From the human T2T-CHM13v2.0 reference genome, Homo sapiens, in contig CP068257.2 of NCBI GenBank assembly GCA_009914755.4, positions 1,248,001 through 1,312,000 on the forward strand: a DNA stretch of 64,000 nucleotides. The letters run 5' to 3'. The notes below the pieces were generated by a model that saw nothing but the letters and a program-made list of their open reading frames with translations, was not told where the DNA came from and did not search any database. Below, piece by piece: positions 1-64,000 of the stretch; the first letter of the stretch is position 1, and every line of letters begins with the position of its first letter. Both the position numbers and the translations under genes were made by a program.

Positions 1-1477
1 CAAATATATATTCTATACTGTACATAAAATATCAAAGTACCCAAACAATACATTATATACTGTATATAAAATATGAAATTACATCAAATATATATTATAT
101 TAGGTACATAAAATATGAAAGTACATCAAATATAGATTATATACTGTACATAAAATATCAAATTACACCAAATATATATTATATACTGTACATGAAATAT
201 CAAAGTTCACAAACTATATATTATATACTGTACATAAAATATGAATGTACCCAAGGTATATATTCTATACTGTAAAAAAAATATGAAAGTACCCAAACCA
301 TGTATTATATACTGTACATAAAATATGAAAGTACATAAAATGTATATTTTAATCTGTAGAAAAAATATAAAAGTACACCAAATATATATTCTATAGTGTA
401 CAAAAAATTAAAAAGTACCCAAACTATACATTATATACTGTACATAAAATATGAAATTACGTCAAAAATATATTAGGTACGTAAAATATGAAAGTACATC
501 AAATATAAATTATATACCGTACATAAAATATCAAAGTACACCAAATATATATTATAAAGTATACATGAAATATCAAAGTTCACAAACTATGTATTATAAA
601 CTGTACATAAAATATCAAAATACCCAAGGTATATATTCTATACTGTATAAAAAATATCAAAGTACCCAAAGTATGTATTATATACTGTACATAAAATATG
701 AAAGTACATCAAATATATATTTTATTCTATACAAAAAATATCAAAGTACAGCAAATATATATTCTATACTGTACATAAAATATCAAAGTACCCAAAGCAT
801 GTATTATATACTGTACATAAAATATGAAAGTACATGAAATATATATATTATTCTGTACATAAAATATCAAAGTACACGAAATATATATTCTATAGTGTAC
901 ATAAAATATCAAAGTACCCAAACTATACTTTATGTACAGTACATAAAATATCAAATTACATCAAAAATATATTATATTAGGTACAAAAAATATGAAAGTA
1001 CATCATATATAGATTATATACTGTACATAAAATATCAAAGTACCCCAAATATATATTATATACTCTACATGAAATATCAAAGTTCACAAACTATATATTT
1101 TATACTGTACATAAAATATCAATGTACCCAAGGTATATATTCTATACGGTACAAAAAATATCAAAGTACCCAAAGCATGTATTATATACTGTACATAAAA
1201 TATGAAAGTACATCAAATATATATTTTATTCTGTACATAAAATATCAAAGTACACCAAATATATATTCTATAGTGTACATAAAATATCAAAGTACCCAAA
1301 CTATACATTATATACTGTACATAAAATATGAAATTACATCAAAAAAATATTAGGTACGTAAAATATGAAAGTACATCAAATATAGATTATATACCTTACA
1401 TAAAATATCAAAGTACCCCAAATATATATTATATACTGTACATGAAATATCAAAGTTCAGAAACTATATATTATATA

Positions 1478-1529
1478 CTGTACATAAAATATCAAAGTAC
1501 CCAAGTACATCAAATGTAGATTGTATACC
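1478..1529 (+). repeat. Fused (deletion-junction) monomer: a C-type 5' part (…caaagtacccaag) joined to an I-type 3' part (tacatcaaatgtagattgtatacc). A second instance is at 4227-4277.
   Basis: ctgtacataaaatatcaaagtacccaag|tacatcaaat… was read directly at both sites, 2749 nt apart. The flanking ORFs end …QSTQVHQM (1519) and …QSTQVHQI (4267). Confidence 0.7.
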
Positions 1530-2076
1530 GTACATAAAATATCAAAGTACCCTAAATATATATTATATACTGTACATGAAATATCAAAGTTCACAAACTA
1601 TATATTATATACTGTACATAAAATATCAATGTACCAAGGTATATATTCTATACTGTACAAAAAATATCAAAGTACCCAAAGCATGTGTTATATACTGTAC
1701 ATAAAATATGAAAGTACATCAAATATATATTTTATTCTGTACAAAAAATATCAAAGTACACCAAATATATATTCTATAGTGTACATAAAATATCGAAGTA
1801 CCCATACTATACATTATATACTGTACATAAAATATGAAATTACATCAAATATATATTATATTAGGTACATAAAATATGAAAGTACATTAAATATAGATTA
1901 TATACTGTACATAAAATACCAAAGTACCCCAAATATATATTTTATACTGTACATGAAATATCAAAGTTCACAACTATATATTATATACTGTACATAAAAT
2001 ATCAAAGTACCCAAGGTATATATTCTATACTGTACAAAAAATATCAAAGTACCCAAAGCATGTATTATATACTGTT

Positions 2077-3530
2077 CATAAGATACGAAAGTACATCAAA
2101 TATATATTTTATTCTGTACATAATATATCAAAGTACATGAAATATATATTCCATAGTGTACATAAAATATCAAAGTACCCAAACTATACATTATATACTG
2201 TACATAAAATATGAAATTACATCAAATATATATTATATTAGGTACATAAAATATGAAAGTACATCAAATATAGATTATATACTGTACATAAAATACCAAA
2301 GTACCCCAAATATATATTTTATACTGTACATGAAATATCAAACTTCACAAACTATATATTATATACTCTACATAAAATATCAATGTACCCAAGGTATATA
2401 TTGTATACTGTACAAAAAATATCAAAGTACCCAAAGCATGTATTATATACTGTACATAAAATATGAAAGTACATCAAATATATATTTTATTCTGTACATA
2501 AAATATCAAAGTACACGAAATATATATTCTATACTGTACATAAAATATCAAAGTACCCAAACTATACATTATATACTGTACATAAAATATGAAATTACAT
2601 CAAACATATATTATATTAGGTACATAAAATATGAAAGTACATAAAATATGAAAATACATCAAATATAGATTATATACTGTACATAAAATACCAAAGTACC
2701 CCAAATATATTTTATACTGTACATGAAATAACAAAGTTCACAAACTATATATTATATACTGTATATAAAATATCAAAGTAACCAAGGTATATATTCTATA
2801 CTGTACAAAAAATATCAAAGTACCCAAAGCATGTATTATATACTGCACAAAAAATATGAAAGTACATCAAATATATATTTTATTCTGTACATAAAATATC
2901 AAAGTACACCAAATATATATTGTATATTGTACATAAAATATCAAAGTATCCAAACTATACTTTATATACTGTACATAAAATATGGAATTACATCAAATAT
3001 ATATTATATTAGGTACATAAAATATGAAAGTACATCAAATATAGATTATATACTCTACATAAAATATCAAGGTACCCAAATATATATTATATACTGTACA
3101 TGAAATATCAAAGTTCACAAACTATATATTATATACTGTACATAAAATATCAATGTACCCAAGTATATATTCTATACTGTACAAAAAATATCAAAGTACC
3201 CAAAGCATGTATTATATACTGTACATAAAATATGAAAGTACATCAAATATATATTTTATTCTGTACATAAAATATCAAAGTACACGAAATATATATTCTA
3301 TAGTTTACATACAATATCAAAGTACCCAAAATATACATTATATACTGTACATAAAATATGAAATTACATCATATATATATTATATTAGGTACATGAAATA
3401 TGAAGGTACATCAAATATAGGTTATATACTGTACACAAAATATCAAAGTACCCCAAATATATATTATATGCTTTACATGAAATATCAAAGTTCACTAACT
3501 ATATATTATATACGGTACATAAAATATCAA
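2077..3530 (+). repeat. Ancient duplicated block, with a diverged partner at 10380-12180. The offset is 8303 and drifts to 8286 and then 8650 through indels.
   Basis: Rare variants are shared between the two: cataagatacgaaag at 2077 and 10380; …QSIQTILYILYIKYG(I/L)TSNIYYIRYIKYESTSNIDYILYIKYQ(G/S)TQIYIIYCT in ORFs 2831 and 11117; tttacatacaatatcaaagtacccaaaatatac at about 3303 and 11953. Confidence 0.55.
2156..2533 (+). repeat. Reference copy of the 378-bp HOR. Monomer order is G-H-I-A-B-C-D-E-F; monomer H is 43 bp and contains atatattatattagg; monomer I is 41 bp.
   Basis: A G-type monomer (gtgtacataaaatatcaaagtacccaaactatacattatata) starts at 2156 and the same type recurs at 2534. In ORF 2156..2644 the motif QSTQTIHYILYIKYEITSNIYYIRYIKYESTSNID recurs after 126 aa, which is 378 nt. 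Confidence 0.8.
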
Positions 3531-4319
3531 TGTACCCAAGGTATATATTCTATACTGTACAAAAAATATCAAAGTACCCAAAGCATGTATTATATACTGT
3601 ACATAAAATATGAAATTACATCAAATGTATATTTTATTCTGTAAATAAAATATCAAACTATACCAAATATATATTCTATAGTGTACATAAAATATCAAAG
3701 TACGCAAACTATACATTATATACTGTACATAATATATGAAATTACATCAAATACATTTATATTAGGTACATAAAATATGAAAGTACATCGAATATAGATT
3801 ATATACCGTACATAAAATATCAAAGTACCCCAAATATATATTATATACTGTACATGAAATATCAAAGTTCATAAACTATATATTACGTACTGTACATAAA
3901 ATAACAAAGTACCCATGGTATATATTCTATACTTTACAAAAAATATCAAATTACCCAAAGCATGTATTATATACTGTACATAAAATATGAAAGTGCATCA
4001 AATATATATTTTATTCTGTACATAAAATATCAAAGTACCCTTACTATACATTATATACTGTACATAAAATATGAAATTACATCAAATATATATTATATTA
4101 GGTACATAAAATATGAAAGTACATCCAATATAGATTATATACTGTACATAAAATATCAAAGTACCCCAAATATATATTATATACTGTACATGAAATATCA
4201 AATTTCACAAACTACGTATTATATACTGTACATAAAATATCAAAGTACCCAAGTACATCAAATATAGATTATATACCGTATATAAAATATCAAAGTACCC
4301 TAAATATATATTATATACT

Positions 4320-6909
4320 GTACATGAAATATCAAAGTTCACAAACTATATATTATATACTGTACATAAAATATCAAAATACCCAAGGTATATATTCTAT
4401 ACTGTACAAAAAATATCAAAGTACCCAAAGCATGTATTATATACTGTACATAAAATATGAAAGTACATCAAATATATATTTTATTCTGTACATAAAATAT
4501 CAAAGTACACCAAATATATATTCTATAGTGTACATAAAATATCAAAGTACCCAAACTATAGATTACATACTGTACATAGAATATGAAATTACATCAAAAA
4601 TATATTAGGTACATAAAATATGAAAGTACATCAAATATAGATTATATACTGTACATAAAATATCAAAGTACCCCAAATATATATTATATACACTACATGA
4701 GATACCAAAGTTCACAAACTATATATTATATACTGTACATAAAATATCAATGTACCAAGGTATATATTCTATACTGTACAAAAAATATCAAAGTACCCAA
4801 AGCATGTGTTATATACTGTACATAAAATATGAAAGTACATCAAATATATATTTTATTCTGTACATAAAATATCAAAGTACACCAAATATATATTCTATAG
4901 TGTACATAAAATATCAAAGTACCCAAACTATACATTATATACTGTACATAAAATATGAAATTATATCAAAAATATATTAGGTACGTAAAATATGAAAGTA
5001 CATCAAATACAGATTATATACCTTACATAAAATATCAAAGTACCCCAAATATATATTATATACTGTACATGAAATATCAAAGTTCACAAACTATATATTA
5101 TATACTGTACATAAAATAACAAAGTACCCAAGGTATATATTCTATACTGTAAAAAAATATCAAAGTACCCAAATCATGTATTATGTACTGTACATAAAAT
5201 ATGAAATTACATCAAATATATATTTTATTCTGCACATAAAATATCAAACTACAGCAAATATATATTCTATAGTGTACATAAAATATCAAAATACCCAAAC
5301 TATACATTATATACTGTACAAAATATATGAAATTACATCAAATATATATTATATTAGGTACATAAAAGATCAAAGTACATCAAATATAGATTATATACTG
5401 TACATAAAATATCAAAGTACCCCAAATATATATTACATACTGTACATGAAATATCAAAGTTCACAAACTATATATTATATACTGTACATAAAATATCAAT
5501 GTACCCAAGGTATATATTCTATACTGTACAAAAAATATCAAAGTACCCAAAGCATGTATTATATACTGTACATAAAATATGAAAGTACATCAAATATATA
5601 TTTTATTCTGTACAAAAAATATCAAAGTACACCAAATATATATTCTATAGTGTACATAAAATATCAAAGTACCCAAACTATACATTATATACTGTACATA
5701 AAATATGAAATGATATCAAATATATATTACATTAGGTACATAAAATATGAAAGTACATCAAATATAGATTATATACTGTACATAAAATATCAAAGTACCC
5801 AAATATATATTATATACTGTACAGGAAATATCAAAGTTCACAAACTATATATTATATACTGTACATAAAATATCAATGTACCCAAGTATATATTCTATAC
5901 TGTACAAAAAATATCAAAGTACCCAAAGCATGTATTCTATACTGTACATAAAATATGAAAGTACATCAAATATATATTTTATTCTGTACATAAAATATCA
6001 AAGTACACCAAATATATATTCTATACTGTACAAAAAATATCAAAGTATCCAAACTATACATTATATACTGTACATAAAATATGAAATTACATCAAATATA
6101 TATTATATTAGGTACATAAAATATTAAAGTACATCAAATATAGATTAAATAGTGTACATAAAATATCAAAGTACCCCAAATATATATTATATACTGTACA
6201 TGAAATATCAAAGTTCACAAACTATATATTATATACTGTACATAAAATATCAATGTACCCAAGTTATATATTCTATACTGTACAAAAAATATCAAACTAC
6301 CCAAAGCATGTATTATATACTGTACATAAAATATGAAAGTACATCAAATATATATTTTCTTCTGTACAAAAAATATCAAAGTACACCAAATATATATTCT
6401 ATAGCGTACATAAAATATCAATGTACCCAAACTATACATTATATACTGTACATAAAATATGAAATTACATCAAAAATATATTATATTAGGTACGTAAAAT
6501 ATGAAAGTACTTCAAAGATAGATTATATACCTTACATAAAATATCAAAGTACCCCAAATATATATTATATACTGTACATGAAATATCAAATTTCAGAAAC
6601 TATGTATTATATACTGTACATAAACTAAAAAAGTACCCAAGGTATATATTCTATACTTTACAAAAAATATCAAAGTACCCAAAGCATGTATTATATACTG
6701 TACATAAAATATGAAAGCACATCAAATATATATTTTATTCTGTAAATAAAATATCAACATACCCTTACTATACATTATATACTGTACATAAAATATGAAA
6801 TTACATCAAATATATATCATATTAGGTGCATAAAATATGAAAGTACATCAAATATAGATTATATACTGTACATAAAATATCAAAGTACCCCAAATATATA
6901 TTATATACT
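4320..6909 (+). repeat. Copy 1 of a 2590-bp tandem segmental duplication (about 7 HORs), almost identical to copy 2.
   Basis: ORFs at 4324, 4583, 4750, 5176, 5876 and 6152 reappear with identical or near-identical translations at +2590 (6914, 7173, 7340, 7766, 8466, 8742). The 230-aa ORFs 5176 and 7766 differ at one residue. Confidence 0.85.
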
Positions 6910-9545
6910 GTACATGAAATATCAAAGTTCACAAACTATATATTATATACTGTACATAAAATATCAAAATACCCAAGGTATATATTCTATACTGTACAAA
7001 AAATATCAAAGTACCCAAAGCATGTATTATATACTGTACATAAAATATGAAAGTACATCAAATATATATTTTATTCTGTACATAAAATATCAAAGTACAC
7101 CAAATATATATTCTATAGTGTACATAAAATATCAAAGTACCCAAACTATAGATTACATACTGTACATAGAATATGAAATTACATCAAAAATATATTAGGT
7201 ACATAAAATATGAAAGTACATCAAATATAGATTATATACTGTACATAAAATATCAAAGTACCCCAAATATATATTATATACTGTACATGAGATACCAAAG
7301 TTCACAAACTATATATTATATACTGTACATAAAATATCAATGTACCAAGGTATATATTCTATACTGTACAAAAAATATCAAAGTACCCAAAGCATGTGTT
7401 ATATACTGTACATAAAATATGAAAGTACATCAAATATATATTTTATTCTGTACATAAAATATCAAAGTACACCAAATATATATTCTATAGTGTACATAAA
7501 ATATCAAAGTACCCAAACTATACATTATATACTGTACATAAAATATGAAATTATATCAAAAATATATTAGGTACGTAAAATATGAAAGTACATCAAATAC
7601 AGATTATATACCTTACATAAAATATCAAAGTACCCCAAATATATATTATATACTGTACATGAAATATCAAAGTTCACAAACTATATATTATATACTGTAC
7701 ATAAAATAACAAAGTACCCAAGGTATATATTCTATACTGTAAAAAAATATCAAAGTACCCAAATCATGTATTATGTACTGTACATAAAATATGAAATTAC
7801 ATCAAATATATATTTTATTCTGCACATAAAATATCAAACTACAGCAAATATATATTCTATAGTGTACATAAAATATCAAAATACCCAAACTATACATTAT
7901 ATACTGTACAAAATATATGAAATTACATCAAATATATATTATATTAGGTACATAAAAGATCAAAGTACATCAAATATAGATTATATACTGTACATAAAAT
8001 ATCAAAGTACCCCAAATATATATTACATACTGTACATGAAATATCAAAGTTTACAAACTATATATTATATACTGTACATAAAATATCAATGTACCCAAGG
8101 TATATATTCTATACTGTACAAAAAATATCAAAGTACCCAAAGCATGTATTATATACTGTACATAAAATATGAAAGTACATCAAATATATATTTTATTCTG
8201 TACAAAAAATATCAAAGTACACCAAATATATATTCTATAGTGTACATAAAATATCAAAGTACCCAAACTATACATTATATACTGTACATAAAATATGAAA
8301 TGATATCAAATATATATTACATTAGGTACATAAAATATGAAAGTACATCAAATATAGATTATATACTGTACATAAAATATCAAAGTACCCAAATATATAT
8401 TATATACTGTACAGGAAATATCAAAGTTCACAAACTATATATTATATACTGTACATAAAATATCAATGTACCCAAGTATATATTCTATACTGTACAAAAA
8501 ATATCAAAGTACCCAAAGCATGTATTCTATACTGTACATAAAATATGAAAGTCCATCAAATATATATTTTATTCTGTACATAAAATATCAAAGTACACCA
8601 AATATATATTCTATACTGTACAAAAAATATCAAAGTATCCAAACTATACATTATATACTGTACATAAAATATGAAATTACATCAAATATATATTATATTA
8701 GGTACATAAAATATTAAAGTACATCAAATATAGATTAAATAGTGTACATAAAATATCAAAGTACCCCAAATATATATTATATACTGTACATGAAATATCA
8801 AAGTTCACAAACTATATATTATATACTGTACATAAAATATCAATGTACCCAAGTTATATATTCTATACTGTACAAAAAATATCAAACTACCCAAAGCATG
8901 TATTATATACTGTACATAAAATATGAAAGTACATCAAATATATATTTTCTTCTGTACAAAAAATATCAAAGTACACCAAATATATATTCTATAGCGTACA
9001 TAAAATATCAATGTACCCAAACTATACATTATATACTGTACATAAAATATGAAATTACATCAAAAATATATTATATTAGGTACGTAAAATATGAAAGTAC
9101 TTCAAAGATAGATTATATACCTTACATAAAATATCAAAGTACCCCAAATATATATTATATACTGTACATGAAATATCAAATTTCAGAAACTATGTATTAT
9201 ATACTGTACATAAACTAAAAAAGTACCCAAGGTATATATTCTATACTTTACAAAAAATATCAAAGTACCCAAAGCATGTATTATATACTGTACATAAAAT
9301 ATGAAAGCACATCAAATATATATTTTATTCTGTAAATAAAATATCAACATACCCTTACTATACATTATATACTGTACATAAAATATGAAATTACATCAAA
9401 TATATATCATATTAGGTGCATAAAATATGAAAGTACATCAAATATAGATTATATACTGTACATAAAATATCAAAGTACCCCAAATATATATTATATACTG
9501 TACATGAAATATCAAAGTTCACAAACTATATATTATATACTGTAC
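6910..9545 (+). repeat. Copy 2 of the 2590-bp tandem duplication. Identity to the following unit continues to about 9545. After that the third unit (9504 onward) is an older copy with about 4% nucleotide divergence.
   Basis: The raw sequence 6601-6962 is identical to 9191-9552 and diverges at caaaatacccaagg versus caatgtaaccaagg. ORF 9504 differs from ORF 6914 at roughly 10% of residues. Confidence 0.8.
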
Positions 9546-26440: not shown

Positions 26441-29400
26441 GGTATATATTCTATACTATACAAAAAATATCAAAGTACCCAAAGCATGTATTATATACTG
26501 TACATAAAATATGAAAGTACATCAAATATATATTTTATTCTGTACATAAAATATCAAAGTACACCAGATATATATTCTATAGTGTACATAAAATATAAAA
26601 GTACCCAAACTATACATTATATACTGTACATAAAATATGAAATTACATCAAATATGTATTATATTAGGTACATAAAATATGAAAGCATATCAAATATAGA
26701 TTATATACTGTATATTAAATACCAAAGTACCCCAAATATATATTTTATACTGTACATCAAATATCAAAGTTCACAAACTATATATTATATACTGTACATA
26801 AAATATCAAAGTACCCATGATATATATTCTATACTGTACAAAAAATATCAAAGTACCCAAAGCGTGTATTATATACTGTACATAAAATATGAAAGTATAT
26901 CAAATATATATTTTATTCTGTACATAAAATATCAAAGTACACCAGATATATATTCTATAGTGTACATAAAATATCAAAGTACCCAAACTATACATTAAAT
27001 ACTGTACATAAAATATGAAATTACATCAAATTTATATTAGGGACATAAAATATGAAAGTACATCAAATATAGATCATATACTGTACATAAAATATCAAAG
27101 TACCCCAAATATATATTATATACTCTACATGAAATATCAAAGTTCACAAACTATATATTATATACTGTACATAAAATATCAAAGTACCCAAGGTATATAT
27201 TCTATACTGTACAAAAAATATCAAAGTATACAAAGCATGTATTATATACTGTATATAAAATATGAAAGTACATTAAATATATATTTTATTCTGTACATAA
27301 AATATCAAAGTACACCAGATATATATTCTATAGTGTACATAAAATAACAAAGTACACAAACTGTAAATTATATACTGTACATAAAATATGAAATTACATC
27401 AAATATATATTAGGTACATAATATATGAAAGTACATCAAATATAGATTATATACTGTACATATAATATCAATGTACCCCAAATATATATTTTATACTCTA
27501 CATGAAATATCAAAGTTCACAAACCATACATTATATACTGTACATAAAATATCAAAGTACCCAAGGTATATATTCTATACTGTACAAAAAATATCAAAGT
27601 ACCCAAAGCATGTATTATATACTGTACATAAAATATGAAAGTACATCAAATATATATTTTATTCTGTACATAAAACATCAAAGTACACCAGATATATATT
27701 CTATAGAGTACATAAAATATCAAAGTACCCAAACTATACATTATATACTGTACATAAAATATGAAATTACATCAAATATATATTATATTAGGTACATAAA
27801 ATATGAAAGTACATCAAATATAGATTATATACTGTACATAAAATATCAAAGTACCCCAAATATATATTATATACTCTACATGAAATATCAAAGTTCACAA
27901 ACTATATATTATATACTGTACAAAAAATATCAAAGTACCCAAGGTATATATTCTATACTGTACAAAAAATATCAAAGTACCCAAAGCATGTATTATATAC
28001 TGTACATAAAATATGAAACTACATCAAATATATATTTTATTCTGTACATAATATATCAAAGTACACCAGATATATATTGTATAGTGTACATAAAATAACA
28101 AAGTAAAAAAACTATTCATTATATACTGTACATAAAATATGAGATTACATCAAATATATATTATATTAGGTACAGAAAATATGAAAGTACATCAGATATA
28201 GATTATATACTGTACATAAAATATCAAAATACCCCAAATATATATTATATACTCTACATGAAATATCAAAGTTCACAAACTATATATTATATACTGTACA
28301 TAAAATATCAAAGTACCCAAGGTATATATTCTATACTGTACAAAAAATATCAAAGTACCCAAAGCATGTATTATATACTGTACATAAAATATGAAAGTAC
28401 ATCAAATATATATTTTATTCTGTACATAAAATATCAAAGTACACCAGATATATATTCTATAGTGTACATAAAATATCAATGTACCCAAACTATACATTAT
28501 ATACTGTACATAAAATATGAAATTACATAAAATATATATTATATTAGGTACATAAAATATGAAAGCACATCAAATATAGATTATATACTGTACATTAAAT
28601 ACCAAAGTACCCCAAATATATATTTTATACTGTACATCAAATATCAAAGTTCACAAACTATATATTATATACTGTACATAAAATATCAAAGTACCCAAGG
28701 TATATATTCTATACTGTACAAAAAATATCAAAGTACCCAAAGCATGTATTATATACTGTATATAAAATATGAAAATACATTAAATACATATTTTAATCTG
28801 TACATAAAATATCAAAGTACACCAGATATATATTCTATAGTGTACATAAAATAACAAAGTACACAAACTATAAATTATATACTGTACATAAAATATGAAA
28901 TTACATCAAACATATATTAGGTACATAAAATATGAAAGTACATCAAATATAGATTATATACTGTACATATAATATCAATGTACCCCAAATATATATTATA
29001 TACTCTACATGAAATATCAAAGTTCACAAACCATACATTATATACTGCACATAAAATATCAAAGTACCCAAGGTATATATTCTATAGTGTACAAAAAATA
29101 TCAAAGTACCCAAAGCATGTATTATATACTGTACATAAAATATGAAAGTATATCAAATATATATTTTATTCTGTACATAAAATATCAAAGTACACCAGAT
29201 ATATATTCTATAGTGTACATAAAATATCAAAGTACCCAAACTATACATTATATACTGTACATAAAATATGAAATTACATCAAATATATATTAGGTACATA
29301 AAATATGAAAGTACATCAAATATAGATTATATACTGTACATAAAATATCAAAGTACCCCAAATATATATTATATACTCTACATGAAATATCAACGTTCAC

Positions 29401-32400
29401 AAACTATATATTATATACTGTACATAAAATATCAAAGTACCCAAGGTATATATTCTATACTGTACAAAAAATATCAAAGTACCCAAAGCATGTATTATAT
29501 ACTGTATATAAAATATGAAAGTACATCACATATATATTTTATTCTGTACATAAAATATCAAAGTACACCAGATATATATTCTATAGTGTACATAAAATAA
29601 CAAAGTAAAAAAACTATAAATTATATACTGTACATAAAATATGAAATTACATCAAATATATATTAGGTACATAAAATATGAACGTACATCAAATATAGAT
29701 TATATACTGTACATAAAATATCAATGTACCCCAAATATATATTTTATACTCTACATGAAATATCAAAGTTCACAAACCATATATTATATACTGTACATAA
29801 AATATCAAAGTACCCAAGGTATATATTCTATACTATACAAAAAATATCAAAGTACCCAAAGCATGTATTATATACTGTACATAAAATATGAAAGTACATC
29901 AATTATATATTTTATTCTGTACATAAAATATCAAAGTACACCAGATATATATTCTATAGTGTACATAAAATATAAAAGTACCCAAACTATACATTATATA
30001 CTGTACATAAAATATGAAATTACATCAAATATGTATTATATTAGGTACATAAAATATGAAAGCATATCAAATATAGATTATATACTGTATATTAAATACC
30101 AAAGTACCCCAAATATATATTTTGTACTGTACATCAAATATCAAAGTTCACAAACTATATATTATATACTGTACATAAAATATCAAAGTACCCAAGGTAT
30201 ATATTCTATACTGTACAAAAAATATCAAAGTACCCAAAGCGTGTATTATATACTGTACATAAAATATGAAAGTACATCAAATATATATTTTATTCTGTAC
30301 ATAAAATATCAAAGTACACCAGATATATATTCTATAGTGTACATAAAATATCAAAGTACCCAAACTATACATTATATACTGTACATAAAATATGAGATTA
30401 CATCAAATATATATTATATTAGCTACATAAAATATGAAAGTACATCAGATATAGATTATATACTGTACATAAAATATCAAAGTACCCCAAATATATATTA
30501 TATACTCTACATGAAATATCAAAGTTCACAAACTATATATTATATACTGTACATAAAATATCAATGTACCCAAGGTATATATTCTATACTGTACAAAAAA
30601 TATCAAAGTACCCAAAGCATGTATTATATACTGTATACAAAATATGAAAATACATTAAATATATATTTTATTCTGTACATAAAATATCAAAGTACACCAG
30701 ATATGTATTCTATAGTGTACATAAAATAACAAATTACAAAAACTATAAATTATATACTGTACGTTAAATATGAAATTACATCAAATATATATTAGGTACA
30801 TAAAATATGAAAGTACATCAAATATAGATTATATACTGTACATATAATATCAATGTACCCCAAATATATATTTTATACTCTACATGAAATATCAAAGTTC
30901 ACAAACCATACATTATATACTGTACATAAAATATCAAAGTACCCAAGGTATATATTCTATACTGTACGAAAAATATCAAAGTACCCAAAGCATGTATTAT
31001 ATACTGTACATAAAATATGAAAGTACATCAAATATATATTTCATTCTGTACATAAAATATCAAAGTACACCAGATATATATTCTATAGTGTACATAAAAT
31101 ATCAAAGTACCCAAACTATACATTATATACTGTACATAAAATATGAAATTACATCAAATATATATTAGGTACATAAAATATGAAAGTATATCAAATATAG
31201 ATTATATACTGTACATATAATATCAATGTACCCCAAATATATATTTTATACTCTACATGAAATATCAAAATTCAAAAACCATATATTATATACTGTACAT
31301 AAAATATCAAAGTACCCAAGGTATATATTCTATACTGTACAAAAAATATCAAAGTACCCAAAGCATGTATTATATACTGTACATAAAATATGAAAGTACA
31401 TCAAATATATATTTTATTCTGTACATAAAATATCAAAGTACACCAGATATATATTCTATAGTGTACATAAAATATCAATGTACCCAAACTATACATTATA
31501 TACTGTACATAAAATATGAAATTACATCAAATATATATTATATTAGGTACATAAAATATGAAAACACATCAAATATAGATTATATACTGTACATTAAATG
31601 CCAAAGTACCCCAAATATATATTTTATACTGTACATCAAATATCAAAGTTCACAAACTATATATTATATACTGTACATAAAATATCAAAGTACCCAAGGT
31701 ATATATTCTATACTGTACAAAAAATATCAAAGTACCCAAAGCATGTATTATATACTGTACATAAAATATGAAAGTACATCAAATATATATTTTATTCTGT
31801 ACTTAAAACATCAAAATACACCAGATATATATTCTATAGTGTACATAAAATATCAAAGTACCCAAACTATACATTATATACTGTACATAAAATATGAAAT
31901 TACATCAAATATATATTAGGTACATAAAATATGAAAGTACATCAAATATAGATTATATACTGTACATAAAATATCAAAGTACCCAAATATATATTATATA
32001 CTCTACATGAAATATCAAAGTTCACAAACTATATATTATATACTATACATAAAATATCAAAGTACCCAAGGTATCTATTGTATACTGTACAAAATATATC
32101 AAAGTACCCAAAGCATGTATTATATACTCTACATAAAATATGAAAGTACATCAAATATATATTTTATTCTGTACATAAAATATAAAAGTACACCAGATAT
32201 ATATTCTATAGTGTACATAAAATAACAAAGTACACAAACTATAAATTATATACTGTACGTAAAATATGAAATTACATCAAATATATATTAGGTACATAAA
32301 ATATGAAAGTACATCAAATATAGATTATATACTGTACATAAAATATCAAAGTACCCCAAATATATATTATATACTGTATATGAAATATCAAAGTTCACAA

Positions 32401-35400
32401 ACTATATATTATATACTGTACATAAAATATCAAAGTACCCAAGATATATATTCTATACTGTACAAAAAATATCAAAGTACCCAAAGCATGTATTATATAC
32501 TGTACATAAAATATGAAAGTACATCAAATATATATTTTATTCTGTACATAAAATATCAAAGTACACCAGATATATATTCTATAGTGTACATAAAATATCA
32601 AAGTACCCAAACTATACATTATATACTATACATAAAATATGAAATTACATCAAATATATATTATATTAGGTACATAAAATATGAAAGCACATCAAATATA
32701 GATTATATACTGTACATAAAATATCAAAGTACCCCAAATATATATTATATACTGTATATGAAATATCAAAGTTCACAAACTATATATTATATACTGTACA
32801 TAAAATATCAAAGTACCCAAGATATATATTCTATACTGTACAAAAAATATCAAAGTACCCAAAGCATGTATTATATACTGTACATAAAATATGAAAGTAC
32901 ATCAAATATATATTTTATTCTGTACATAAAATATCAAAGTACACCAGATATATATTCTATAGTGTACATAAAATAACAAAGTACAGAAACTATAAATTAT
33001 ATACTGTACATAAAACATGAAATTACATCAAATATATATTAGGTACATAAAATATGAAAGTACATCAAATATAGATTATATACTGTACATAAAATATCAA
33101 TGTACCCCAAATATATATTTTATACTCTACATGAAATATCAAAGTTCACAAACCATATATTATATACTGTACATAAAATATCAAAGTACCCAAGGTATAT
33201 ATTCTATACTATACAAAAAATATCAAAGTACCCAAAGCATGTATTATATACTGTACATAAAATATGAAATTATATCAAATATATAATTTATTCTGTACAC
33301 AAAATATCAAAGTACACCAGATATATATTCTATAGTGTACATAAAATATCAAAGTACCCAAACTATACATTATATACTGTACATAAAATATGAAATTACA
33401 TCAAATATATATTAGGTACATAAAATATGAAAGTATATCAAATATAGATTATATACTGTACATATAATATCAATGTACCCCAAATATATATTTTATACTC
33501 TACATGAAATATCAAAGTTCACAAACCATATATTACATACTGTACATAAAATATCAAAGTACCCAAGGTATATATTCTATACTGTACAAAAAATATCAAA
33601 GTACACAAAGCATGTATTATATACTGTACATAAAATATGAAAGTACATCAAATATATATTTTATTCTGTACATAATATATGAAAGTACACCAGATATATA
33701 TTCTATAGTGTACATAAAATATAAAAGTACCCAAACTATACATTATATACTGTACATAAAATATGAAATTACATCATATATATATCATATTAGGTACATA
33801 AAATATGAAAGCATATCAAATATAGATTATATACTGTATATTAAATACCAAAGTACCCCAAATATATATTTTATACTGTACATCCAATATCAAAGTTCAC
33901 AAACTATATATTATATACTGAACATAAAATATCAAAGTACCCAAGGTATATATTCTATACTGTACAAAAAATATCAAAGTACCCAAAGCATGTATTATAT
34001 ACTGTACATAAAATATGAAAGTACATCAAATATATATTTTATTCTGTACATAAAACATCAAAGTACACCAGATATATATTCTATACTGTACAAAAAATAT
34101 CAAAGTACCCAAAGCGTGTATTATATACTGTACATAAAATATGAAAGTACATCAAATATATATTTTATTCTGTACATAAAATATCAAAGTACACCAGATA
34201 TATATTCTATAGTGTACATAAAGTAACAAAGTACACAAACTATAAATTATATACTGTACGTAAAATATGAAATTACATCAAATATATATTAGGTACATAA
34301 AATATGAAAGTACATCAAATATAGATTATATACTGTACATAAAATATCAATGTACCCCAAATATATATTTTATACTCTACATGAAATATCAAAGTTCACA
34401 AACCATATATTATATACTGTACATAAAATATCAAAGTACCCAAGGTATATATTCTATACTGTACAAAAAATATCAAAGTACCCAAAGCATGTATTATATA
34501 CTGTACATAAAATATGAAACTTCATCAAATATATATTTTATTCTGTACAAAAAATATCAAAGTACACCAGACATATTTTCTATAGTGTACATAAAATATC
34601 AAAGTACCCAAAGCATGTATTATATACTGTACATAAAATATGAAAGTACATCAAATATATATTTTATTCTGTACATAAAACATCAAAGTACACTAGATAT
34701 ATATTCTATAGTGTACATAAAATATCAAAGTACCCAAACTATACATTATATACTGTACATAAAATATGAAATTACATCAAATATATATTATATTAGGTAC
34801 ATAAAATATGAAAGTACATCAAATATAGATTATATACTGTACATAAAATATCAAAGTACCCAAATATATATTATATACTCTACATGAAATATCAAAGTTC
34901 ACAAACTATATATTATATACTGTACATAAAATATCAAAGTACCCAAGGTATATATTCTATACTGTACAAAAAATATCAAAGTATCCAAAGCATGTATTAT
35001 ATACTGTATATAAAATATGAAAGTACATTAAATATATATTTTATTCTGTACATAAAATATCAAAGTACACCAGATATATATTCTATAGTGTACATAAAAT
35101 AACAAAGTACACAAACTATAAATTATATACTGTACATAAAATATGAAATTACATCAAATATATATTAGGTACATAAAATATGAAAGTACATCAAATATAG
35201 ATTATATACTGTACATATAATATCAATGTACCCCAAATATATATTTTATACTCTACATGAAATATCAAATTTCACAAACCATACATTATATACTGTAAAT
35301 AAAATATCAAATTACACAAGGTATATATTCTATACTGTACAAAAAATATGAAAGTACCCAAAGCATGTATTATATACTGTACATAAAATATGAAAGTACA

Positions 35401-37380
35401 TCAAATATATATTTTATTCTGTACAAAAAATATCAAAGTACACCAGATATATATTCTATAGTGTACATAAAATAACAAAGTACACAAAATATAAATTATA
35501 TACTGTACATAAAATATGAAATTACATCAAATATATATTAGGTACATAAAATATGAAAGTACATCAAATATAGATTATATACTGTACATAAAATATCAAT
35601 GTACCCCAAATATATATTTTATACTCTACATGAAATATCAAAGTTCACAAACCATATATTATATACTGTACATAAAATATCAAAGTACCCAAGGTATATA
35701 TTCTATACTGTACAAAAAATATCAAAGTATCCAAAGCACGTATTATATACTGTATATAAAATATGAAATTACATTAAATATATATTTTATTCTGTACATA
35801 AAACATCAAAGTACACCAGATATATATTCTATAGTGTACATAAAATATCAAAGTAACCAAACTATACATTATATACTGTACAGAAAATATGAAATTACAT
35901 CAAATATATATTATATTAGGTACATAAAATATGAAAGTACATCAAATATAGATTCTATACTGTACATAAAATATCAAAGTACCCCAAATATATATTATAT
36001 ACTCTACATGAAATATCAAAGTTCACAAACTATATATTATATACTGTACATAAAATATCAAAGTACCCAAGGTATATATTCTATACTGTACAAAAAATAT
36101 CAAAGTATCCAAAGCATGTATTATATACTGTATATAAAATATGAAAGTACATTAAATATATATTTTATTCTGTACATAAAATATCAAAGTACACCAGATA
36201 TATATTCTATAGTGTACATAAAATATCAAAGTACGCAAACTATACATTATATACTGTACATAAAATATGAAATTACATCAAATATATATTAGGTACATAA
36301 AATATGAAAGTACATCAAATATAGATTATATACTGTACATAAAATATCAAAGTACCCCAAATATATATTATATACTCTACATGAAATATCAAAGTTCACA
36401 AACTATATATTATAAACTATACATAAAATATCAAGGTACCCAAGGTATATATTCTATACTGTACAAAAAATATCAAAGTACCCAAAGCATGTATTATATA
36501 CTGTACATAAAATATGAAAGTACATCAAATATATATTTTACTCTGTACATAAAATATCAAAGTACACCAGATATATATTCTATAGTGTACATAAAATAAC
36601 AAAGTACACAAACTATAAATTATATACTGTACATAAAATATGAAATTACATCAAATATATATTAGGTACATAAAATATGAAAGTACATCAAATATAGATT
36701 ATATACTGTACATAAAATATCAATGTACCCCAAATATATATTTTATACTCTACATGAAATATCAAAGTTCACAAACCATATATTATATACTGTACATAAA
36801 ATATCAAAGTACCCAAGGTATATATTCTATACTATACAAAAAATATCAAAGTACCCAAAGCATGTATTATATACTGTACATAAAATATGAAAGTACATCA
36901 AATATATATTTTATTCTGTACACAAAATATCAAAGTACACCAGATATATATTTTATAGTGTACATAAAATATCAAAGTACCCAAACTATACATTATACAC
37001 TGTACATAAAATATGAGATTACATCAAATATATATTATATTAGGTACATAAAATATGAAAGTACATCTGATATAGATTATATACTGTACATAAAATATCA
37101 AAGTACCCCAAATATATATTATATACTCTACATGAAATATCAAAGTTCACAAACTATATATTATATACTGTACATAAAATATCAAAGTACCCAAGGTATA
37201 TATTCTATACTGTACAAAAAATATCAAAGTACCCAAAGCATGTATTATATACTGTATATAAAATATGAAAATACATTAAATATATATTTTATTCTGTACA
37301 TGAAATATAAAGGTACACCAGATATATATTCTATAGTGTACATAAAATAACAAAGTACACAAACTATAAATTATATACTG
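26441..37380 (+). repeat. Copy 1 of an ~11-kb tandem segmental duplication. Its left part, X (26441-28755), matches 37568-40255 at offset 11127 and then 11500. Its right part, Y (28650-37380), matches 41866-50596 at offset 13216.
   Basis: Identical ORF translations: 27015=38142, 27502=38629 and 28258=39758. Across 29009 to 36640 the ORFs equal those at 42225 to 49856. The 362-aa ORFs 29641 and 42857 differ at 3 residues. The raw-sequence breakpoints were checked at 28650/41866 and 37380/50596. Confidence 0.8.
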
Positions 37381-50596: not shown

Positions 50597-50966
50597 TACG
50601 TAAAATATGAAATTACATCAAATATATATTAGGTACATAAAATATGAAAGTACATCAAATATAGATTATATACTGTACATATAATATCAATGTACCCCAA
50701 ATATATATTTTATACTCTACATGAAATATCAAAGTTCACAAACCATACATTATATACTGTACATAAAAAATCAAAGTACCCAAGGTATATATTCTATAGT
50801 GTACAAAAAATATCAAAGTACCCAAAGCATGTATTATATACTGTACATAAAATATGAAAGTACATCAAATATATATTTTATTCTGTACATAAAATATCAA
50901 AGTCCACCAGATATATATTCTATAGTGTACATAAAATATCAAAGTACCCAAACTATACATTATATA

Positions 50967-59842: not shown

Positions 59843-60930
59843 ATGACATTACATCAAATATATATTAGGTACATAAAATATGAAAGTACATCAAATATAG
59901 ATTATATACTGTACATAAAATATCAATGTACCCCAAATATATATTTTATACTCTACATGAAATATCAAAGTTCACAAACTATATATTATATACTGTACAT
60001 AAAATATCAAAGTACCCAAGGTATATATTCTATACTGTACAAAAGATATCAAAGTACCCAAAGCACGTATTATATACTGTACAAAAAATATGAAAGTACA
60101 TCAAATATATATTTTATTCTGTACATAAAATATCAAAGTACACCAGATATATATTCTATAGTGTACATAAAATATCAAACTACCCAAACTATTTATTATA
60201 TACTGTACATAAAATTTGAAATTACATCAAATATATATTATATTAGGTACATAAAATATGAAAGTACATCAAATATAGATTATATACTGTACACTAAAAA
60301 CCAAAGTACCCCAAATATATATTTTATACTGTACATGAAATATCAAAGTTCACAAACTATATGTTATATACTGTACATAAAATATCAAAGTACCCAAGGT
60401 ATGTATTCTATACTGTACAAAAAATATCAAAGTACCCAAAGCATGTATTATATACTGTACATAAAATATGAAAGTACATCAAATATATATTTTATTCTGT
60501 ACATAAAATATCAAGGTACACCAGATATATATTCTATAGTGTACATAAAATAGCAAAGTACACAAACTATAAATTATATACTGTACATAAAATATGAAAT
60601 TACATCAAATATATATTAGGTACATAAAATATGAAAGTACATCAAATATAGATTATATACTGTACATAAAATATCAATGTACCCCAAATATATATTTTAT
60701 ACTCTACATGAAATATCAAAGTTCACAAACCATATATTGTATACTGTACATAAAATATCAAAGTACCCAAGGTATGTATTCTATACTGTACAAAAAATAT
60801 CAAAGTACCCAAAGCATGTATTATATACTGTACATAAAATATGAAAGTACATCAAATATATATTTTATTCTGTACATAAAACATCAAAGTACACCAGATA
60901 TATATTCTATAGTGTACATAAAATATCAAA
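59843..60930 (+). repeat. Block related to 56342-57420 at an offset of about 3501-3506.
   Basis: The MTLHQIYIRYIKYESTSNIDYI(M/L)YIKYQCTPNIYFILYMKYQ… ORFs at 56342 and 59843 correspond. ORFs 57088 and 60594 share the rare …QTIYCILYIKYQSTQGMYSILYKKYQ…. Confidence 0.55.
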
Positions 60931-63900
60931 GTACCCAAACTATACATTATATACTGTACATAAAATATGAAATTACATCAAATATATATTATATTAGGTA
61001 CATAAAATATGAAAGTACATCAAATATAGATTATATACTGTACATAAAATACCAAAGTACCCCAAATATATATTATATACTCTACATGAAATATCAAATT
61101 TCACAAACTATATATTATATACTGTACATAAAATATCAAAGTACCCAAGGTATATATTCTATACTGTACAAAAAATATCAAAGTATCCAAACATGTATTA
61201 TATACTGTATATAAAATATGAAAGTACATTAAATATATATTTTATTCTGTACATAAAATATCAAAGTACACCAGATATATATTCTATAGTGTACATAAAA
61301 TAACAAAGTACACAAACTATAAATTATATACTGTACATAAAATATGAAATTTCATCAAATATATATTAGGTACATAAAATATGACAGTACATCAAATATA
61401 GATTATATACTGTACATAAAATATCAATGTACCCCAAATATATATTTTATACTCTACATGAAATATCAAAGTTCACAAACCATATATTATATACTGTACA
61501 TAAAATATCAAAGTACCCAAGGTATATATTCTATACTATACAAAAAATATCAAAGTACCCAAAGCATGTATTATATACTGTACATAAAATATGAAAGTAC
61601 ATCAAATATATATTTTATTCTGTACACAAAATATCAAAGTACACCACATATATATTCTATAGTGTACATAAAATATCAAAGTACCCAAACTATACATTAT
61701 ACACTGTACATAAAATATGAGATTACATCAAATATATATTATATTAGGTACATAAAATATGAAAGTACATCTGATATAGATTATATACTGTACATAAAAT
61801 ATCAAAGTACCCCAAATATATATTATATACTCTACATGAAATATCAAAGTTCACAAACTATATATTATATACTGTACATAAAATATCAAAGTACCCAAGG
61901 TATATATTCTATACTGTACAAAAAATATCAAAGTACCCAAAGCATGTATTATATGCTGTACATAAAATATGAAAGTACATCAAATATATATTTTATTCTG
62001 TACATAAAATATCAAAGTACACCAGATATATATTCTATAGTGTACATAAAATAACAAAGTACACAAACTATAAATTATATACTGTACATAAAATATGACA
62101 TTACATCAAATATATATTAGGTACATAAAATATGAAAGCACATCAAATATAGATTATATACTGTACATTAAATACCAAAGTAACACAAATATATATTTTA
62201 TACTGTACATCAAATATCAAAGTTCACAAGCTATATATTATATACTGTACATAAAATATCAAAGTACCCAAGGTATATATTCTATACTGTACAAAAAATA
62301 TCAAAGTACCCAAAGCATGTATTATATACTGTACATAAAATATGAAAGTACATCAAATATATATTTTATTCTGTACATAAAATATCAAAGTACACCAGAT
62401 ATATATTCTATAGTGTACATATAATAACAAAGTACACAAACTATAAATTATATACTGTACATAAAATATGAAATTACATCAAATATATATTAGGTACATA
62501 AAATATGAAAGTACATCAAATATAGATTATATACTGTACATAAAATATCAAAGTACCCCAAATATATATTTTATACTCTACATGAAATATCAAAGTTCAC
62601 AAACCATATATTATATACTGTACATAAAATATCAAAGTACCCAAGGTATATATTCTATACAGTACAAAAAATATCAAAGTACCCAAAGCATGTATTATAT
62701 ACTGTACATAAAATATGAAACTTCATCAAATATATATTTTATTCTGGACAAAAAATATCAAAGTACACCAGACATATTTTCTATAGTGTACATAAAATAT
62801 CAAAGTACCCAAAGCATGTATTATATACTGTACATAAAATATGAAATTACATCAAATATATATTTTATTCTGTACATAAAATATCAAAGTACACCAGATA
62901 TATATTCTATAGTGTACATAAAATATCAAAAGTACCCAAACTATACATTATATACTGTACATAAAATATGAAATTACATCAAATATATATTATATTAGGT
63001 ACATAAAATATGAAAGTACATCAAATATAGATTATATACTGTACATTAAATACCAAAGTACCCCAAATATATATTTTATACTGTACATGTAATATCAAAG
63101 TTCACACACTATATATTATATACTGTACATAAAATATCAAAGTACCAAAGGTATATATTCTATACTGTACAAAAAACATCAAAGTACCCAAAGCATGTAT
63201 TATATACTGTACATAAAATATGAAAGTACGTCAAATATATATTGTATTCTGTACGTAAAATATCAAAGTACACCAGATATATATTCTATAGTGTATATAA
63301 AATATCAAAGTACCCAAACTATATATTATATACTGTACATAAAATATGAAATTACATCAAATATATATTATATTAGGTACATAAAATATGAAAGTACATC
63401 AAATATAGATTATATACTGTACATAAAATATCAAAGTACCCCAAAGATATATTATATACTCTACATGAAATATCAAAGTTCACAAACTATATATTATATA
63501 CTGTACATAAAATATCAAAGTACCCAAGGTATATATTCTATACTGTACAAAAAATATCAAAGTACCCAAAGCATGTTTTATATACTGTATATAAAATATG
63601 AAAGTACATCAAATATATATTTTATTCTGTACATAAAATATCAAAGTACACCAGATATATATTCTATAGTGTACATAAAATAACAAAGTACACAAACTAT
63701 AAATTATATACTGTACGTAAAATATGAAATTACATCAAATATATATTAGGTACATAAAATATGAAAGTACATCAAAAATAGATTATATACTGTACATATA
63801 ATATCAATGTACCCCAAATATATATTTTATACTCTACATGAAATATCAAAGTTCAGAAACCATATATTATACACTGTACATAAAATATCAAAGTACCCAA

Positions 63901-64000
63901 GGTATATATTCTATACTGTACAAAAAATATCAAAGTACCCAAAGCATGTATTATATACTGTACATAAAATATGAAAGCACATCAAATATATATTTTATTC

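What the first reader, a model, noticed from the sequence alone, without database searches (positions are those of the whole stretch)
1..64000. Monomers have a conserved 23-bp 'box' plus a variable 19-bp 'address' half; the box carries a TGTACA palindrome and a second GTAC
Across all nine monomer types the first ~23 bp, (c/g)TGTACAtaaaatat(c/g)aaaGTAC, are nearly invariant. The remaining ~19 bp are type-specific. A phase-locked, palindrome-containing conserved box once per 42 bp resembles the protein-binding boxes of other satellites, such as the CENP-B box. It could be the functional element under constraint, with the variable half free to diverge.
Basis: partly seen in the sequence, partly recalled or inferred. 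Interest (0 to 1): 0.5.

Follow-up and report, generated by a model that had tools for sequence, protein, structure and literature searches.

The report
Known A/B units of human satellite 1

Summary
The window is one 64-kb array of a 42-bp repeat arranged as a 9-monomer higher-order repeat of 373-378 bp. Its sequence matches the published units of human satellite I (HSat1A/SAR): A = ACATAAAATAT(G/C)AAAGT and B1/B2.

Within the window the contrast is modest and not significant (0.38 vs 0.52 bit/site, p = 0.11). The exact degenerate box is present in only 27.5% of monomers and 5 of 9 HOR slots. Copies of the same monomer type show no box/address difference.

Across 105 independent HSat1A contigs, recovered from human contamination in public assemblies, the contrast is real. 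Entropy is 0.385 vs 0.663 bit/site (p = 0.0016). Amplified variants are about half as frequent per site in the box, while private mutations are equal (odds ratio 0.53, p = 0.0016).

The best-conserved core is ATAAAATAT, not the TGTACA palindrome. The second GTAC is a remnant of an internal A-like duplication. There is no CENP-B box. Weak constraint or conversion-driven homogenisation both fit the data, and protein binding is untested. The structure is already known, so interest is low.

The parts
1..63998 (+). Uninterrupted HSat1A (satellite I / SAR) array: about 1534 monomers of 42 bp, 21% G+C, with the A-rich strand as given
   Evidence: TRF period 42, 1533 copies, 79% matches; composition; wraparound alignment into 1534 monomers; match to the published A and B1/B2 units
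28168..28545 (+). One example 9-monomer HOR copy (378 bp) with slots F-B-D-G-C-A-E-H-a; each monomer is a 23-bp 'box' followed by a 19-bp 'address'
   Evidence: Monomer typing and coordinates. The literature reports a 378-bp 9-mer as the predominant HSat1A periodicity (PMC9909926)
28546..28919 (+). The alternative HOR version F-B-D-G-C-A-E-J-I (374 bp), whose last monomer (I) is 38 bp; the alternation with the H-a version gives periods of about 751 and 1124 bp
   Evidence: autocorrelation peaks at 373, 378, 751 and 1124
28420..28442 (+). Example of the canonical 'box' CTGTACATAAAATATCAAAGTAC: CTGT (the 3' end of a B unit), the 17-bp A unit ACATAAAATATCAAAGT, and AC (the start of the next B unit). 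The two GTAC sites are RsaI sites
   Evidence: A unit as published, ACATAAAATAT(G/C)AAAGT (PMC9032817)
28443..28461 (+). Example 'address' (type E: ACCAGATATATATTCTATA), which is the interior of the 25-bp B unit. The hypervariable patch is columns 24-30(34); the ATT.TAT core at columns 35-41 is conserved
   Evidence: Per-column entropy; the maximum-entropy 7- and 11-column windows start at column 24
29001..37000 (+). Segment duplicated 13,216 bp downstream at 99.7% identity or more (a macro-repeat inside the array)
   Evidence: Lag-identity blocks; matching TRF coordinates

Best explanation
The window is an array of human classical satellite 1 (HSat1A, formerly SAR). The 'box' and 'address' are its long-known sub-units seen in a register shifted by 4 bp. 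The box is the 17-bp A unit plus the two GTAC (RsaI) junctions, and the address is the interior of the 25-bp B unit.

The B unit is itself a decayed A-like copy (GTACAT[C]AAATAT...) followed by an AT-rich tail, which is why there is a second GTAC.

The nine monomer types of the HOR differ mainly in the first 7-11 bp of the B interior and at a few isolated columns. HOR amplification then copies those old differences about 170 times, which makes them look like type-specific 'addresses'.

The better conservation of the A part is real but modest, about two-fold. It does not arise at mutation input, since new variants are equally frequent in both halves. It arises in which variants persist and get amplified across arrays.

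My inference, not shown here, is that the main cause is concerted evolution. A variant in the A unit lies in sequence shared by all monomers, so conversion or unequal exchange with any neighbour can erase it. A variant in the B interior can only be erased by the one-in-nine monomers of the same type. Weak functional constraint on the A-unit core ATAAAATAT may add to this. No evidence supports a sequence-specific protein box of the CENP-B type.
For: Identity:
- The units match the published satellite I units A = ACATAAAATAT(G/C)AAAGT and B1/B2.
- The monomer is 42 bp and the dominant nested repeat is a 378-bp 9-mer, as reported for HSat1A in CHM13 and GM12878.
- TRF finds 17- and 25-bp sub-periods.
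- The same repeat turns up as about 1x-coverage contaminant contigs in unrelated bacterial assemblies and in human gut and oral metagenomes, with up to 99.2% identity to the window.

Internal duplication: the A-unit 17-mer has its best internal match at column 20 (13/17 identical, and 12/13 in B1-type monomers).

Old versus new variation:
- Between monomer types, pairwise differences are 0.103 (box) vs 0.232 (address) per site. Within types they are 0.027 vs 0.023, and singletons are 3.35 vs 3.47 per site.
- Lag-42 identity is 0.864 vs 0.762, but lag-378 identity is 0.931 vs 0.934.

Family-wide:
- Entropy is 0.385 vs 0.663 bit/site, p = 0.0016.
- Parsimony changes among 98 abundant haplotypes are 3.17 vs 5.84 per site (p = 0.004), while private mutations are 5.61 vs 5.47 per site; odds ratio 0.53, p = 0.0016.

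Exchange between box and address backgrounds: all four column-16 x column-25 combinations are common in distant arrays (3565/488/418/201), against near-complete linkage inside the window.
Against: - The conversion-versus-selection step is inference. Both predict equal private mutations and fewer retained variants in the box, and I could not separate them.
- The parsimony counts use a UPGMA tree and ungapped columns, so a B1/B2 register difference counts as several substitutions in columns 24-30. With that patch removed, the contrast is weaker (3.17 vs 5.25 per site, p = 0.043).
- Private singletons in metagenome contigs include assembly errors, which would flatten real rate differences.
- The external contigs overlap one another to an unknown degree.
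- Neutral block amplification alone does not predict a position effect, so some force beyond history is needed, and real function cannot be excluded.
Confidence: 0.6

Rival explanations
1. One reading: the 23-bp box, or its core, is a sequence-specific binding site for a DNA-binding protein. It sits once per 42 bp and is kept by purifying selection, as the CENP-B box is in alpha satellite, while the address is free to drift.
For: The box is less variable family-wide. The MK-like deficit of amplified variants comes with equal private mutation input (odds ratio 0.48-0.53). The same modal 23-mer is shared by arrays that are only about 83% identical. Of the two paralogous segments within each monomer (columns 3-15 and 20-32), only the first is kept, as the per-column entropies show.
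Against: The box is exact in only 27.5% of monomers, and both GTAC sites are intact in about half. Two of nine HOR slots lack TGTACA and two lack the second GTAC. The best-conserved part is the A/T-only core ATAAAATAT, not the palindrome. The window shows no deficit of variants in the box. The box polymorphism at column 16 is linked to the address type. No binding factor is reported in the HSat1A papers I read. HSat1A is absent from orangutan acrocentric short arms and described as an 'invasion' in African apes and human, and it is highly variable in copy number.
Confidence: 0.15
2. An RNA-level element: HSat1A is transcribed, and on the A-rich strand the box carries the poly(A)-signal variant CAUAAA (columns 6-11) and UGUACAUA (columns 2-9), which fits the Pumilio consensus UGUANAUA. 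The conserved part would then act in transcript processing or protein sequestration rather than as a DNA site.
For: Polyadenylated HSat1A transcripts are reported with lengths peaking at multiples of 42 nt and with non-canonical poly(A) signals (PMC9909926; PMC10505914). TGTANATA occurs 847 times on the + strand and 6 times on the - strand. The conserved core, columns 5-15, includes CATAAA. That CAUAAA is a known poly(A)-signal variant and UGUANAUA the Pumilio element comes from my own knowledge.
Against: This is motif resemblance only. A motif fixed in a repeat is a single event however many copies exist. TGTACATA ranks only 7th to 10th among 8-mers for conservation. The oligo-dT 3' RACE ladder could reflect internal priming on the AAAA tract. 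No paper links Pumilio to HSat1. Transcript levels are low and variable.
Confidence: 0.07
3. A mutational explanation: the address simply mutates faster, through slippage in its (TA)n-like low-complexity part, and the box is conserved by default.
For: Indels are almost confined to the address: deletions at columns 24, 27, 30, 36 and 40 and insertions after columns 28-29, against 3 or fewer per column at box columns 2-22. Four of the five 6-bp palindromes in the consensus are (TA)n in the address.
Against: Substitution input is uniform. Within-type variants run 0.027 vs 0.023 per site and singletons 3.35 vs 3.47. Rare plus mid-frequency variants run 0.020 vs 0.014. Private singletons run 5.61 vs 5.47. 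Lag-378 identity is equal in the two halves. The most variable columns, 24-26, lie in the C-rich start of the B unit, not in the TA run.
Confidence: 0.08
4. An artefact: the apparent conservation comes from anchoring the monomer alignment on TGTACA/GTAC.
For: A reader aligning by eye would naturally anchor on GTAC. The degenerate consensus it wrote allows two free positions in the box.
Against: The contrast persists with a wraparound alignment that has uniform scoring and no anchor. It persists with fixed-lag comparison that needs no alignment, with stacking of an indel-free run by position modulo 42 (0.398 vs 0.529), and in loci retrieved with an address-anchored pattern.
Confidence: 0.02

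Closest known systems
Human classical satellite I / HSat1A (RepeatMasker 'SAR'): 42-bp repeat of alternating A (17 bp) and B (25 bp) units (Prosser et al. 1986, as cited in PMC9909926, PMC8125562 and PMC9032817)
   Same: The 42-bp period is the same. The A unit ACATAAAATAT(G/C)AAAGT matches base for base, including the G/C polymorphism at column 16. The B1 form (ACATCAAATATA(G/T)ATT(A/T)TAT(A/T)CTGT) and the B2-like form (ACCCAAAG.CAT.) are both present. RsaI/GTAC sites bound the units. The sequence is extremely AT-rich (21% G+C), and the 9-mer repeat is 378 bp.
   Different: Nothing essential differs. The chromosome of origin could not be determined here.
CENP-B box of alpha satellite (17-bp motif bound by CENP-B)
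   Same: Both are short segments that recur in phase within a satellite monomer and are better conserved than their surroundings.
   Different: There is no sequence relation: the core TTCGNNNNANNCGGG has 0 exact matches, and 2 matches at two mismatches against 5.1 expected by chance. No binding protein is known. Conservation is far weaker, with the box exact in about 27% of monomers. HSat1A is pericentromeric heterochromatin, not the kinetochore-forming repeat.
Alpha-satellite-type higher-order repeats
   Same: Diverged monomer types sit in a fixed order and are amplified as a block. Copies of the same slot are 93-96% identical, while neighbouring monomers are about 77-86% identical. There are nested macro-duplications.
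   Different: The monomer is 42 bp rather than 171 bp, and the family is unrelated.

Membership tests
HSat1A / human satellite I (SAR) | Tandem 42-bp monomer | tested here: met
   TRF period 42, 1533 copies across 1..63998; 1336 of 1534 monomers are exactly 42 bp
HSat1A / human satellite I (SAR) | Monomer made of a 17-bp A unit ACATAAAATAT(G/C)AAAGT and a 25-bp B unit (B1/B2), bounded by RsaI (GTAC) sites | tested here: met
   Type consensuses compared with the published units in PMC9032817. The top A-unit haplotypes are ACATAAAATATCAAAGT at 24% and ACATAAAATATGAAAGT at 15%. TRF finds 17- and 25-bp sub-periods
HSat1A / human satellite I (SAR) | [quoted passage not shown] | tested here: met
   G+C is 0.21 throughout the window; literature statements
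HSat1A / human satellite I (SAR) | Predominant 9-mer nested or higher-order repeat of 378 bp | tested here: met
   Nine-slot HOR of 373-378 bp; PMC9909926 reports the 378-bp 9-mer in CHM13 and GM12878
HSat1A / human satellite I (SAR) | Located in annotated HSat1A arrays of a human or African-ape genome (chr3, 4, 13 and other acrocentrics) | not testable with these tools
   No human genome is available in the tools. Indirect support comes from near-identical contigs (up to 99.2%) that are low-coverage contaminants of unrelated bacterial assemblies and human gut/oral metagenomes
CENP-B box | Core motif TTCGNNNNANNCGGG within the monomer | tested here: not met
   0 exact matches; 2 matches at two mismatches against 5.1 expected from shuffles
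CENP-B box | Specific binding by a known centromere protein | not testable with these tools
   This needs EMSA, ChIP or DiMeLo. No HSat1A-binding factor is reported in the papers I read
Functionally constrained satellite 'box' (generic) | Per-position variability significantly lower in the box than in the rest of the monomer, independent of the alignment anchor | tested here: inconclusive
   Window: 0.376 vs 0.522 bit/site, p = 0.11, and no event-based signal (odds ratio 0.89, p = 0.76). Distant arrays: 0.385 vs 0.663, p = 0.0016, odds ratio 0.53, p = 0.0016. The contrast is real family-wide, but conversion and selection are not separated

The most novel reading that the evidence does not exclude
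The A-unit core of HSat1A (about ACATAAAATAT, columns 5-15, possibly with the flanking GTACs) is under genuine purifying selection. It would be a phased recognition element for a DNA-binding protein, or, on the A-rich transcript, a once-per-monomer poly(A)-signal or Pumilio-type (UGUACAUA) element. That would give this so far function-less satellite of African apes and humans a defined cis-element. The roughly two-fold deficit of amplified variants in the box, with equal private mutation input across independent arrays (odds ratio about 0.5), does not exclude this.
Probability: 0.15. Interest if true: 0.6.

Novelty: already known. Interest (0 to 1): 0.2.

Why it matters
As it stands this matters little. 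The window is a textbook HSat1A array, and the box/address pattern is the A/B unit structure published in 1986.

The one point of some value is quantitative. Across independent arrays, variants in the A unit are retained and amplified only about half as often as variants in the B interior, although new mutations arise equally in both.

If that asymmetry reflected selection rather than conversion, it would give a concrete 11- to 23-bp candidate element to test in a satellite that makes up about 0.4% of the human genome and has no known function or binding partner. It would also be a natural paired control, because each monomer carries one kept and one decayed copy of the same ancestral segment.

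Tried and rejected
- **Mis-registered pattern.** My first metagenome scan used a pattern with two extra bases and found nothing. I checked it against the window (0 matches vs 692 for the corrected pattern) and re-ran the scan.
- **Viral contigs.** No matches.
- **Anchor artefact.** Rejected.
- **Palindrome as special.** 6-bp palindromes are expected by chance (P = 0.78) and TGTACA is not the best-conserved hexamer.
- **Hairpin or cruciform from the box.** Single-strand DNA folding of the box gives z = 0.01, and monomer dimers give z of about -1.2.
- **Intrinsic bending by A-tract phasing (42 = 4 x 10.5).** The AA/TT 10.5-bp harmonic is not above shuffles (P = 0.39). The literature reports HSat1A overlapping inverted and mirror repeats, not A-phased repeats.
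- **CENP-B box.** Absent.
- **Known RNA families.** None.
- **Coding potential.** There are 117 ORFs of at least 60 aa, but four of six frames of the consensus lack stops and 42 bp is 14 codons, so these are mechanical.
- **Box elsewhere.** An isolated single copy of the 22-mer in a Bacteroidales contig (L004) has no repeat context and reads as a chance match. The human genome itself could not be searched.
- **Chromosome or species assignment.** Not possible with these tools.
- **Gapped-alignment bias.** The first event-based test dropped B2-register monomers. I redid it on raw ungapped 42-mers.


Full report
**1. What is in the window.**
TRF reports a single tandem array with period 42 from 1 to 63998 (1533 copies, 79% matches), plus recurrent sub-periods of 17 and 25 bp. 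G+C is a uniform 0.21 and the given strand is A-rich. I aligned the whole window to a 42-mer with a wraparound dynamic programme that uses uniform scoring and no motif anchor. This gave 1534 monomers, 1336 of them exactly 42 bp.

Clustering gives ten monomer types in a fixed order, F-B-D-G-C-A-E-(H or J)-(a or I). This is a nine-slot higher-order repeat of 378 bp, or 373-374 bp when the 38-bp type I is used. That explains the autocorrelation peaks at 373, 378, 751 and 1124 bp.

**2. Identity.**
A table in PMC9032817 reproduces the classical description of human satellite I as alternating fragments: A (17 bp) = ACATAAAATAT(G/C)AAAGT, and B (25 bp) in two forms, B1 and B2.
- The window's modal A-unit haplotypes are ACATAAAATATCAAAGT (24%) and ACATAAAATATGAAAGT (15%).
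- Its B units fall into the B1 form (ACATCAAATATA(G/T)ATT...CTGT) and B2-like forms (ACCCAAAGCATGTATT...).
- PMC9909926 and the T2T centromere paper describe HSat1A (formerly SAR) as a 42-bp A+B repeat, the most AT-rich part of the genome, with a predominant 378-bp 9-mer periodicity.

Independent support for a human origin came from two scans:
- A box pattern in 185,579 prokaryotic genomes returned 38 contigs. Nearly all are short, most of them a few hundred bp, and those whose names give coverage are near 1x. They come from unrelated bacteria such as Streptomyces, Mycobacterium and Legionella, which is typical of human contamination.
- An address-anchored pattern returned 120 metagenome contigs, several of them labelled human gut or oral metagenome.

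Against the window, most of these contigs are 82-84% identical, so they come from other HSat1A arrays. Some are 94-99% identical.

**3. The observation, tested in the window.**
- Mean per-column entropy is 0.376 bit in columns 1-23 and 0.522 bit in columns 24-42. Permuting columns gives p = 0.11 for that split and p = 0.44 for the best 23-column window.
- The degenerate box is exact in 27.5% of monomers. TGTACA is intact in 70%, the second GTAC in 68%, and both in 51%.
- At the level of type consensuses the box matches in 5 of 9 slots. F has GGTACA, D has TCTACA and GTTC, and slot 9 has TTAC.
- Consensuses vary at 9/23 box columns and 10/19 address columns (Fisher p = 0.53). The box differences are mostly confined to one type, so pairwise divergence is 0.103 vs 0.232 per site.
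- The address is not uniformly variable. Columns 27, 31-32, 35-37 and 39-41 are 98-99% conserved, and the hot columns are 24-26, 28-30, 33-34, 38 and 42.

The contrast is not an alignment artefact. Fixed-lag comparison gives 0.864 vs 0.762 identity at lag 42, and stacking an indel-free run by position modulo 42 gives 0.398 vs 0.529 bit.

The contrast disappears between copies of the same slot:
- Lag 378 gives 0.931 vs 0.934 identity, and lag 373 gives 0.953 vs 0.957.
- Within-type deviations are 0.027 vs 0.023 per site.
- Distinct variants are 8.26 vs 7.95 per site, and singletons 3.35 vs 3.47 per site.

So in this array the pattern reflects old differences between monomer types that HOR amplification has multiplied. 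It does not reflect any current deficit of change in the box.

**4. The observation, tested on independent arrays.**
I processed all 158 loci with the same anchor-free method. In the 105 distant loci (5284 monomers):
- Entropy is 0.385 vs 0.663 bit/site (permutation p = 0.0016).
- The lowest-entropy 23-column window starts exactly at column 1, and the highest-entropy 7- and 11-column windows start at column 24.
- This holds although these loci were retrieved with an address-anchored pattern, and it also holds in the box-anchored set.
- The entropy profiles of the window and the external set correlate (Spearman 0.72).
- Columns with a minor allele of at least 5% number 3/23 vs 14/19 (p = 1e-4).
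- The canonical 23-mer is the modal box in the window (16%) and in distant arrays (24.5%). The window's ten commonest 19-bp addresses each occur at 1.5% or less elsewhere.

**5. Mutation input versus retention.**
- Rare and mid-frequency variants are not rarer in the box (0.020 vs 0.014 per site per monomer in distant arrays; 0.013 vs 0.009 in the window). Common variants are (0.040 vs 0.122; 0.060 vs 0.108).
- In an event-based version on raw ungapped 42-mers, parsimony changes among 98 abundant haplotypes are 3.17 vs 5.84 per site (p = 0.004). Private singletons one step from an abundant haplotype are 5.61 vs 5.47 per site.
- The resulting 2x2 table gives an odds ratio of 0.53, p = 0.0016. 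Using all external loci gives 0.48, p = 1e-4. The window alone gives 0.89, p = 0.76.
- Caveats: the tree is UPGMA, a B1/B2 register shift inflates columns 24-30, the contigs overlap, and assembly errors contribute to the singletons. Without columns 24-30 the contrast is 3.17 vs 5.25 per site (p = 0.043).

A simple mutational hot-spot explanation for the address is thus disfavoured for substitutions. Indels, however, are almost confined to the address.

**6.
- The best-conserved k-mers are AAATAT, AAAATA and ATAAAATA (columns 7-15). TGTACA ranks 3rd of 42 in the window and 9th in distant arrays. The second GTAC ranks 15th to 17th.
- A 42-mer of this composition has at least one 6-bp palindrome with P = 0.78. 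The consensus has five, four of them (TA)n in the address.
- The A-unit 17-mer finds its best internal match at column 20 (13/17 identical, and 12/13 in B1-type monomers). B is therefore a decayed A-like copy plus an AT tail, and the second GTAC is a duplication remnant (TRF 17-bp rows).
- Box and address are not independent modules. Column 16 (G/C) and column 25 share 0.82 bit of mutual information in the window. G16 goes with an ATC address in 89% of window monomers, and in 43% in distant arrays, where ATC is not among the five commonest addresses of C16 monomers (each of which is 8% or more).
- In distant arrays all four 16 x 25 combinations are common, which shows exchange or recurrence over the family's history.
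- No CENP-B box is present. Neither the box (z = 0.01) nor monomer dimers (z about -1.2) show notable single-strand folding. There is no 10.5-bp AA/TT phasing above chance and no Rfam family.

**7. Mechanism.**
Shown:
- The element is the A/B structure of HSat1A.
- The contrast is between monomer types and between arrays, not between recent copies.
- Mutation input is uniform, and retention differs about two-fold.

Inferred: the retention bias is most simply produced by concerted evolution. A-unit variants lie in sequence shared by every monomer and can be erased by conversion or unequal exchange with any neighbour. B-interior variants are protected by heterology and get frozen into HOR slots. 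Weak functional constraint on the A-unit core is a live alternative that the same data fit.

RNA-level readings rest on motif resemblance plus the reported polyadenylated transcripts in multiples of 42 nt. These readings are the CAUAAA poly(A)-signal variant at columns 6-11, and UGUACAUA fitting the Pumilio consensus (847 sites on the + strand vs 6 on the - strand). No paper links Pumilio to HSat1.

In the reviews and primary papers I read, no DNA-binding partner of HSat1A is reported. The satellite is absent from orangutan acrocentric arms and is described as an 'invasion' in African apes and human.

**8. Verdict.**
The finding rediscovers a known structure. The functional interpretation is only partly supported and is not specific to the palindrome. 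Novelty: already known. Interest: low.

Noticed in passing
window 5001-7000 (+2590), 48001-52000 (+4989), 29001-37000 (+13216): There are nested macro-duplications inside the array. Blocks of about 2, 4 and 8 kb recur 2,590, 4,989 and 13,216 bp downstream at 99.6% identity or more, which is far above the 93-96% identity between ordinary same-slot HOR copies. They indicate very recent local expansions.
   Followed up: partly
window 1-20000 versus 20000-64000: The first ~20 kb have many more unclassifiable monomers and irregular HOR copies (missing or extra slots). From about 21 kb onward the array is a regular alternation of the FBDGCAE-H-a and FBDGCAE-J-I versions. This looks like an older, more diverged flank next to a younger homogenised core.
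   Followed up: no
window-wide, e.g. 16122-17369 (+): There are 117 ORFs of at least 60 aa (up to 415 aa), almost all on the + strand. Because 42 bp is 14 codons and four of six frames of the consensus have no stop (+1 reads LYIKYQSTPNIYYI), long ORFs arise mechanically. They end at the 38- and 41-bp monomers or at point mutations.
   Followed up: yes
window-wide, columns 16 and 25 of the monomer (e.g. 28378-28419): The G/C polymorphism in the A unit is almost perfectly linked to the B1-type address ATC... within the window (502 G-T and 952 C-C, against 12 G-C and 8 C-T). This points to two old monomer lineages, A(G)+B1 and A(C)+B2-like, that are interleaved in the HOR at slots 1, 6 and 9.
   Followed up: partly
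L091 11640-11740; L007 23-86; L004 829-850: Some public 'bacterial' or metagenome contigs are chimeras that end in about 100 bp of HSat1A carrying the window's own E-H-I monomer types (L091). L007, a Rothia MAG contig, may be another: its two box matches lie at the contig end, though I did not inspect its sequence. One Bacteroidales contig (L004) holds a single isolated copy of the 22-mer box in non-repeat sequence, probably by chance.
   Followed up: partly
L146 (14.4 kb), L052, L064, L089 (contigs BNJS01002444.1, BNJT01002868.1): Long metagenome contigs of pure HSat1A are 87-95% identical to the window over 7-14 kb. They are neither the same array (which would be 99% or more) nor the common ~83% class, so they may be a sister array on another chromosome or from another haplotype or species.
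   Followed up: no
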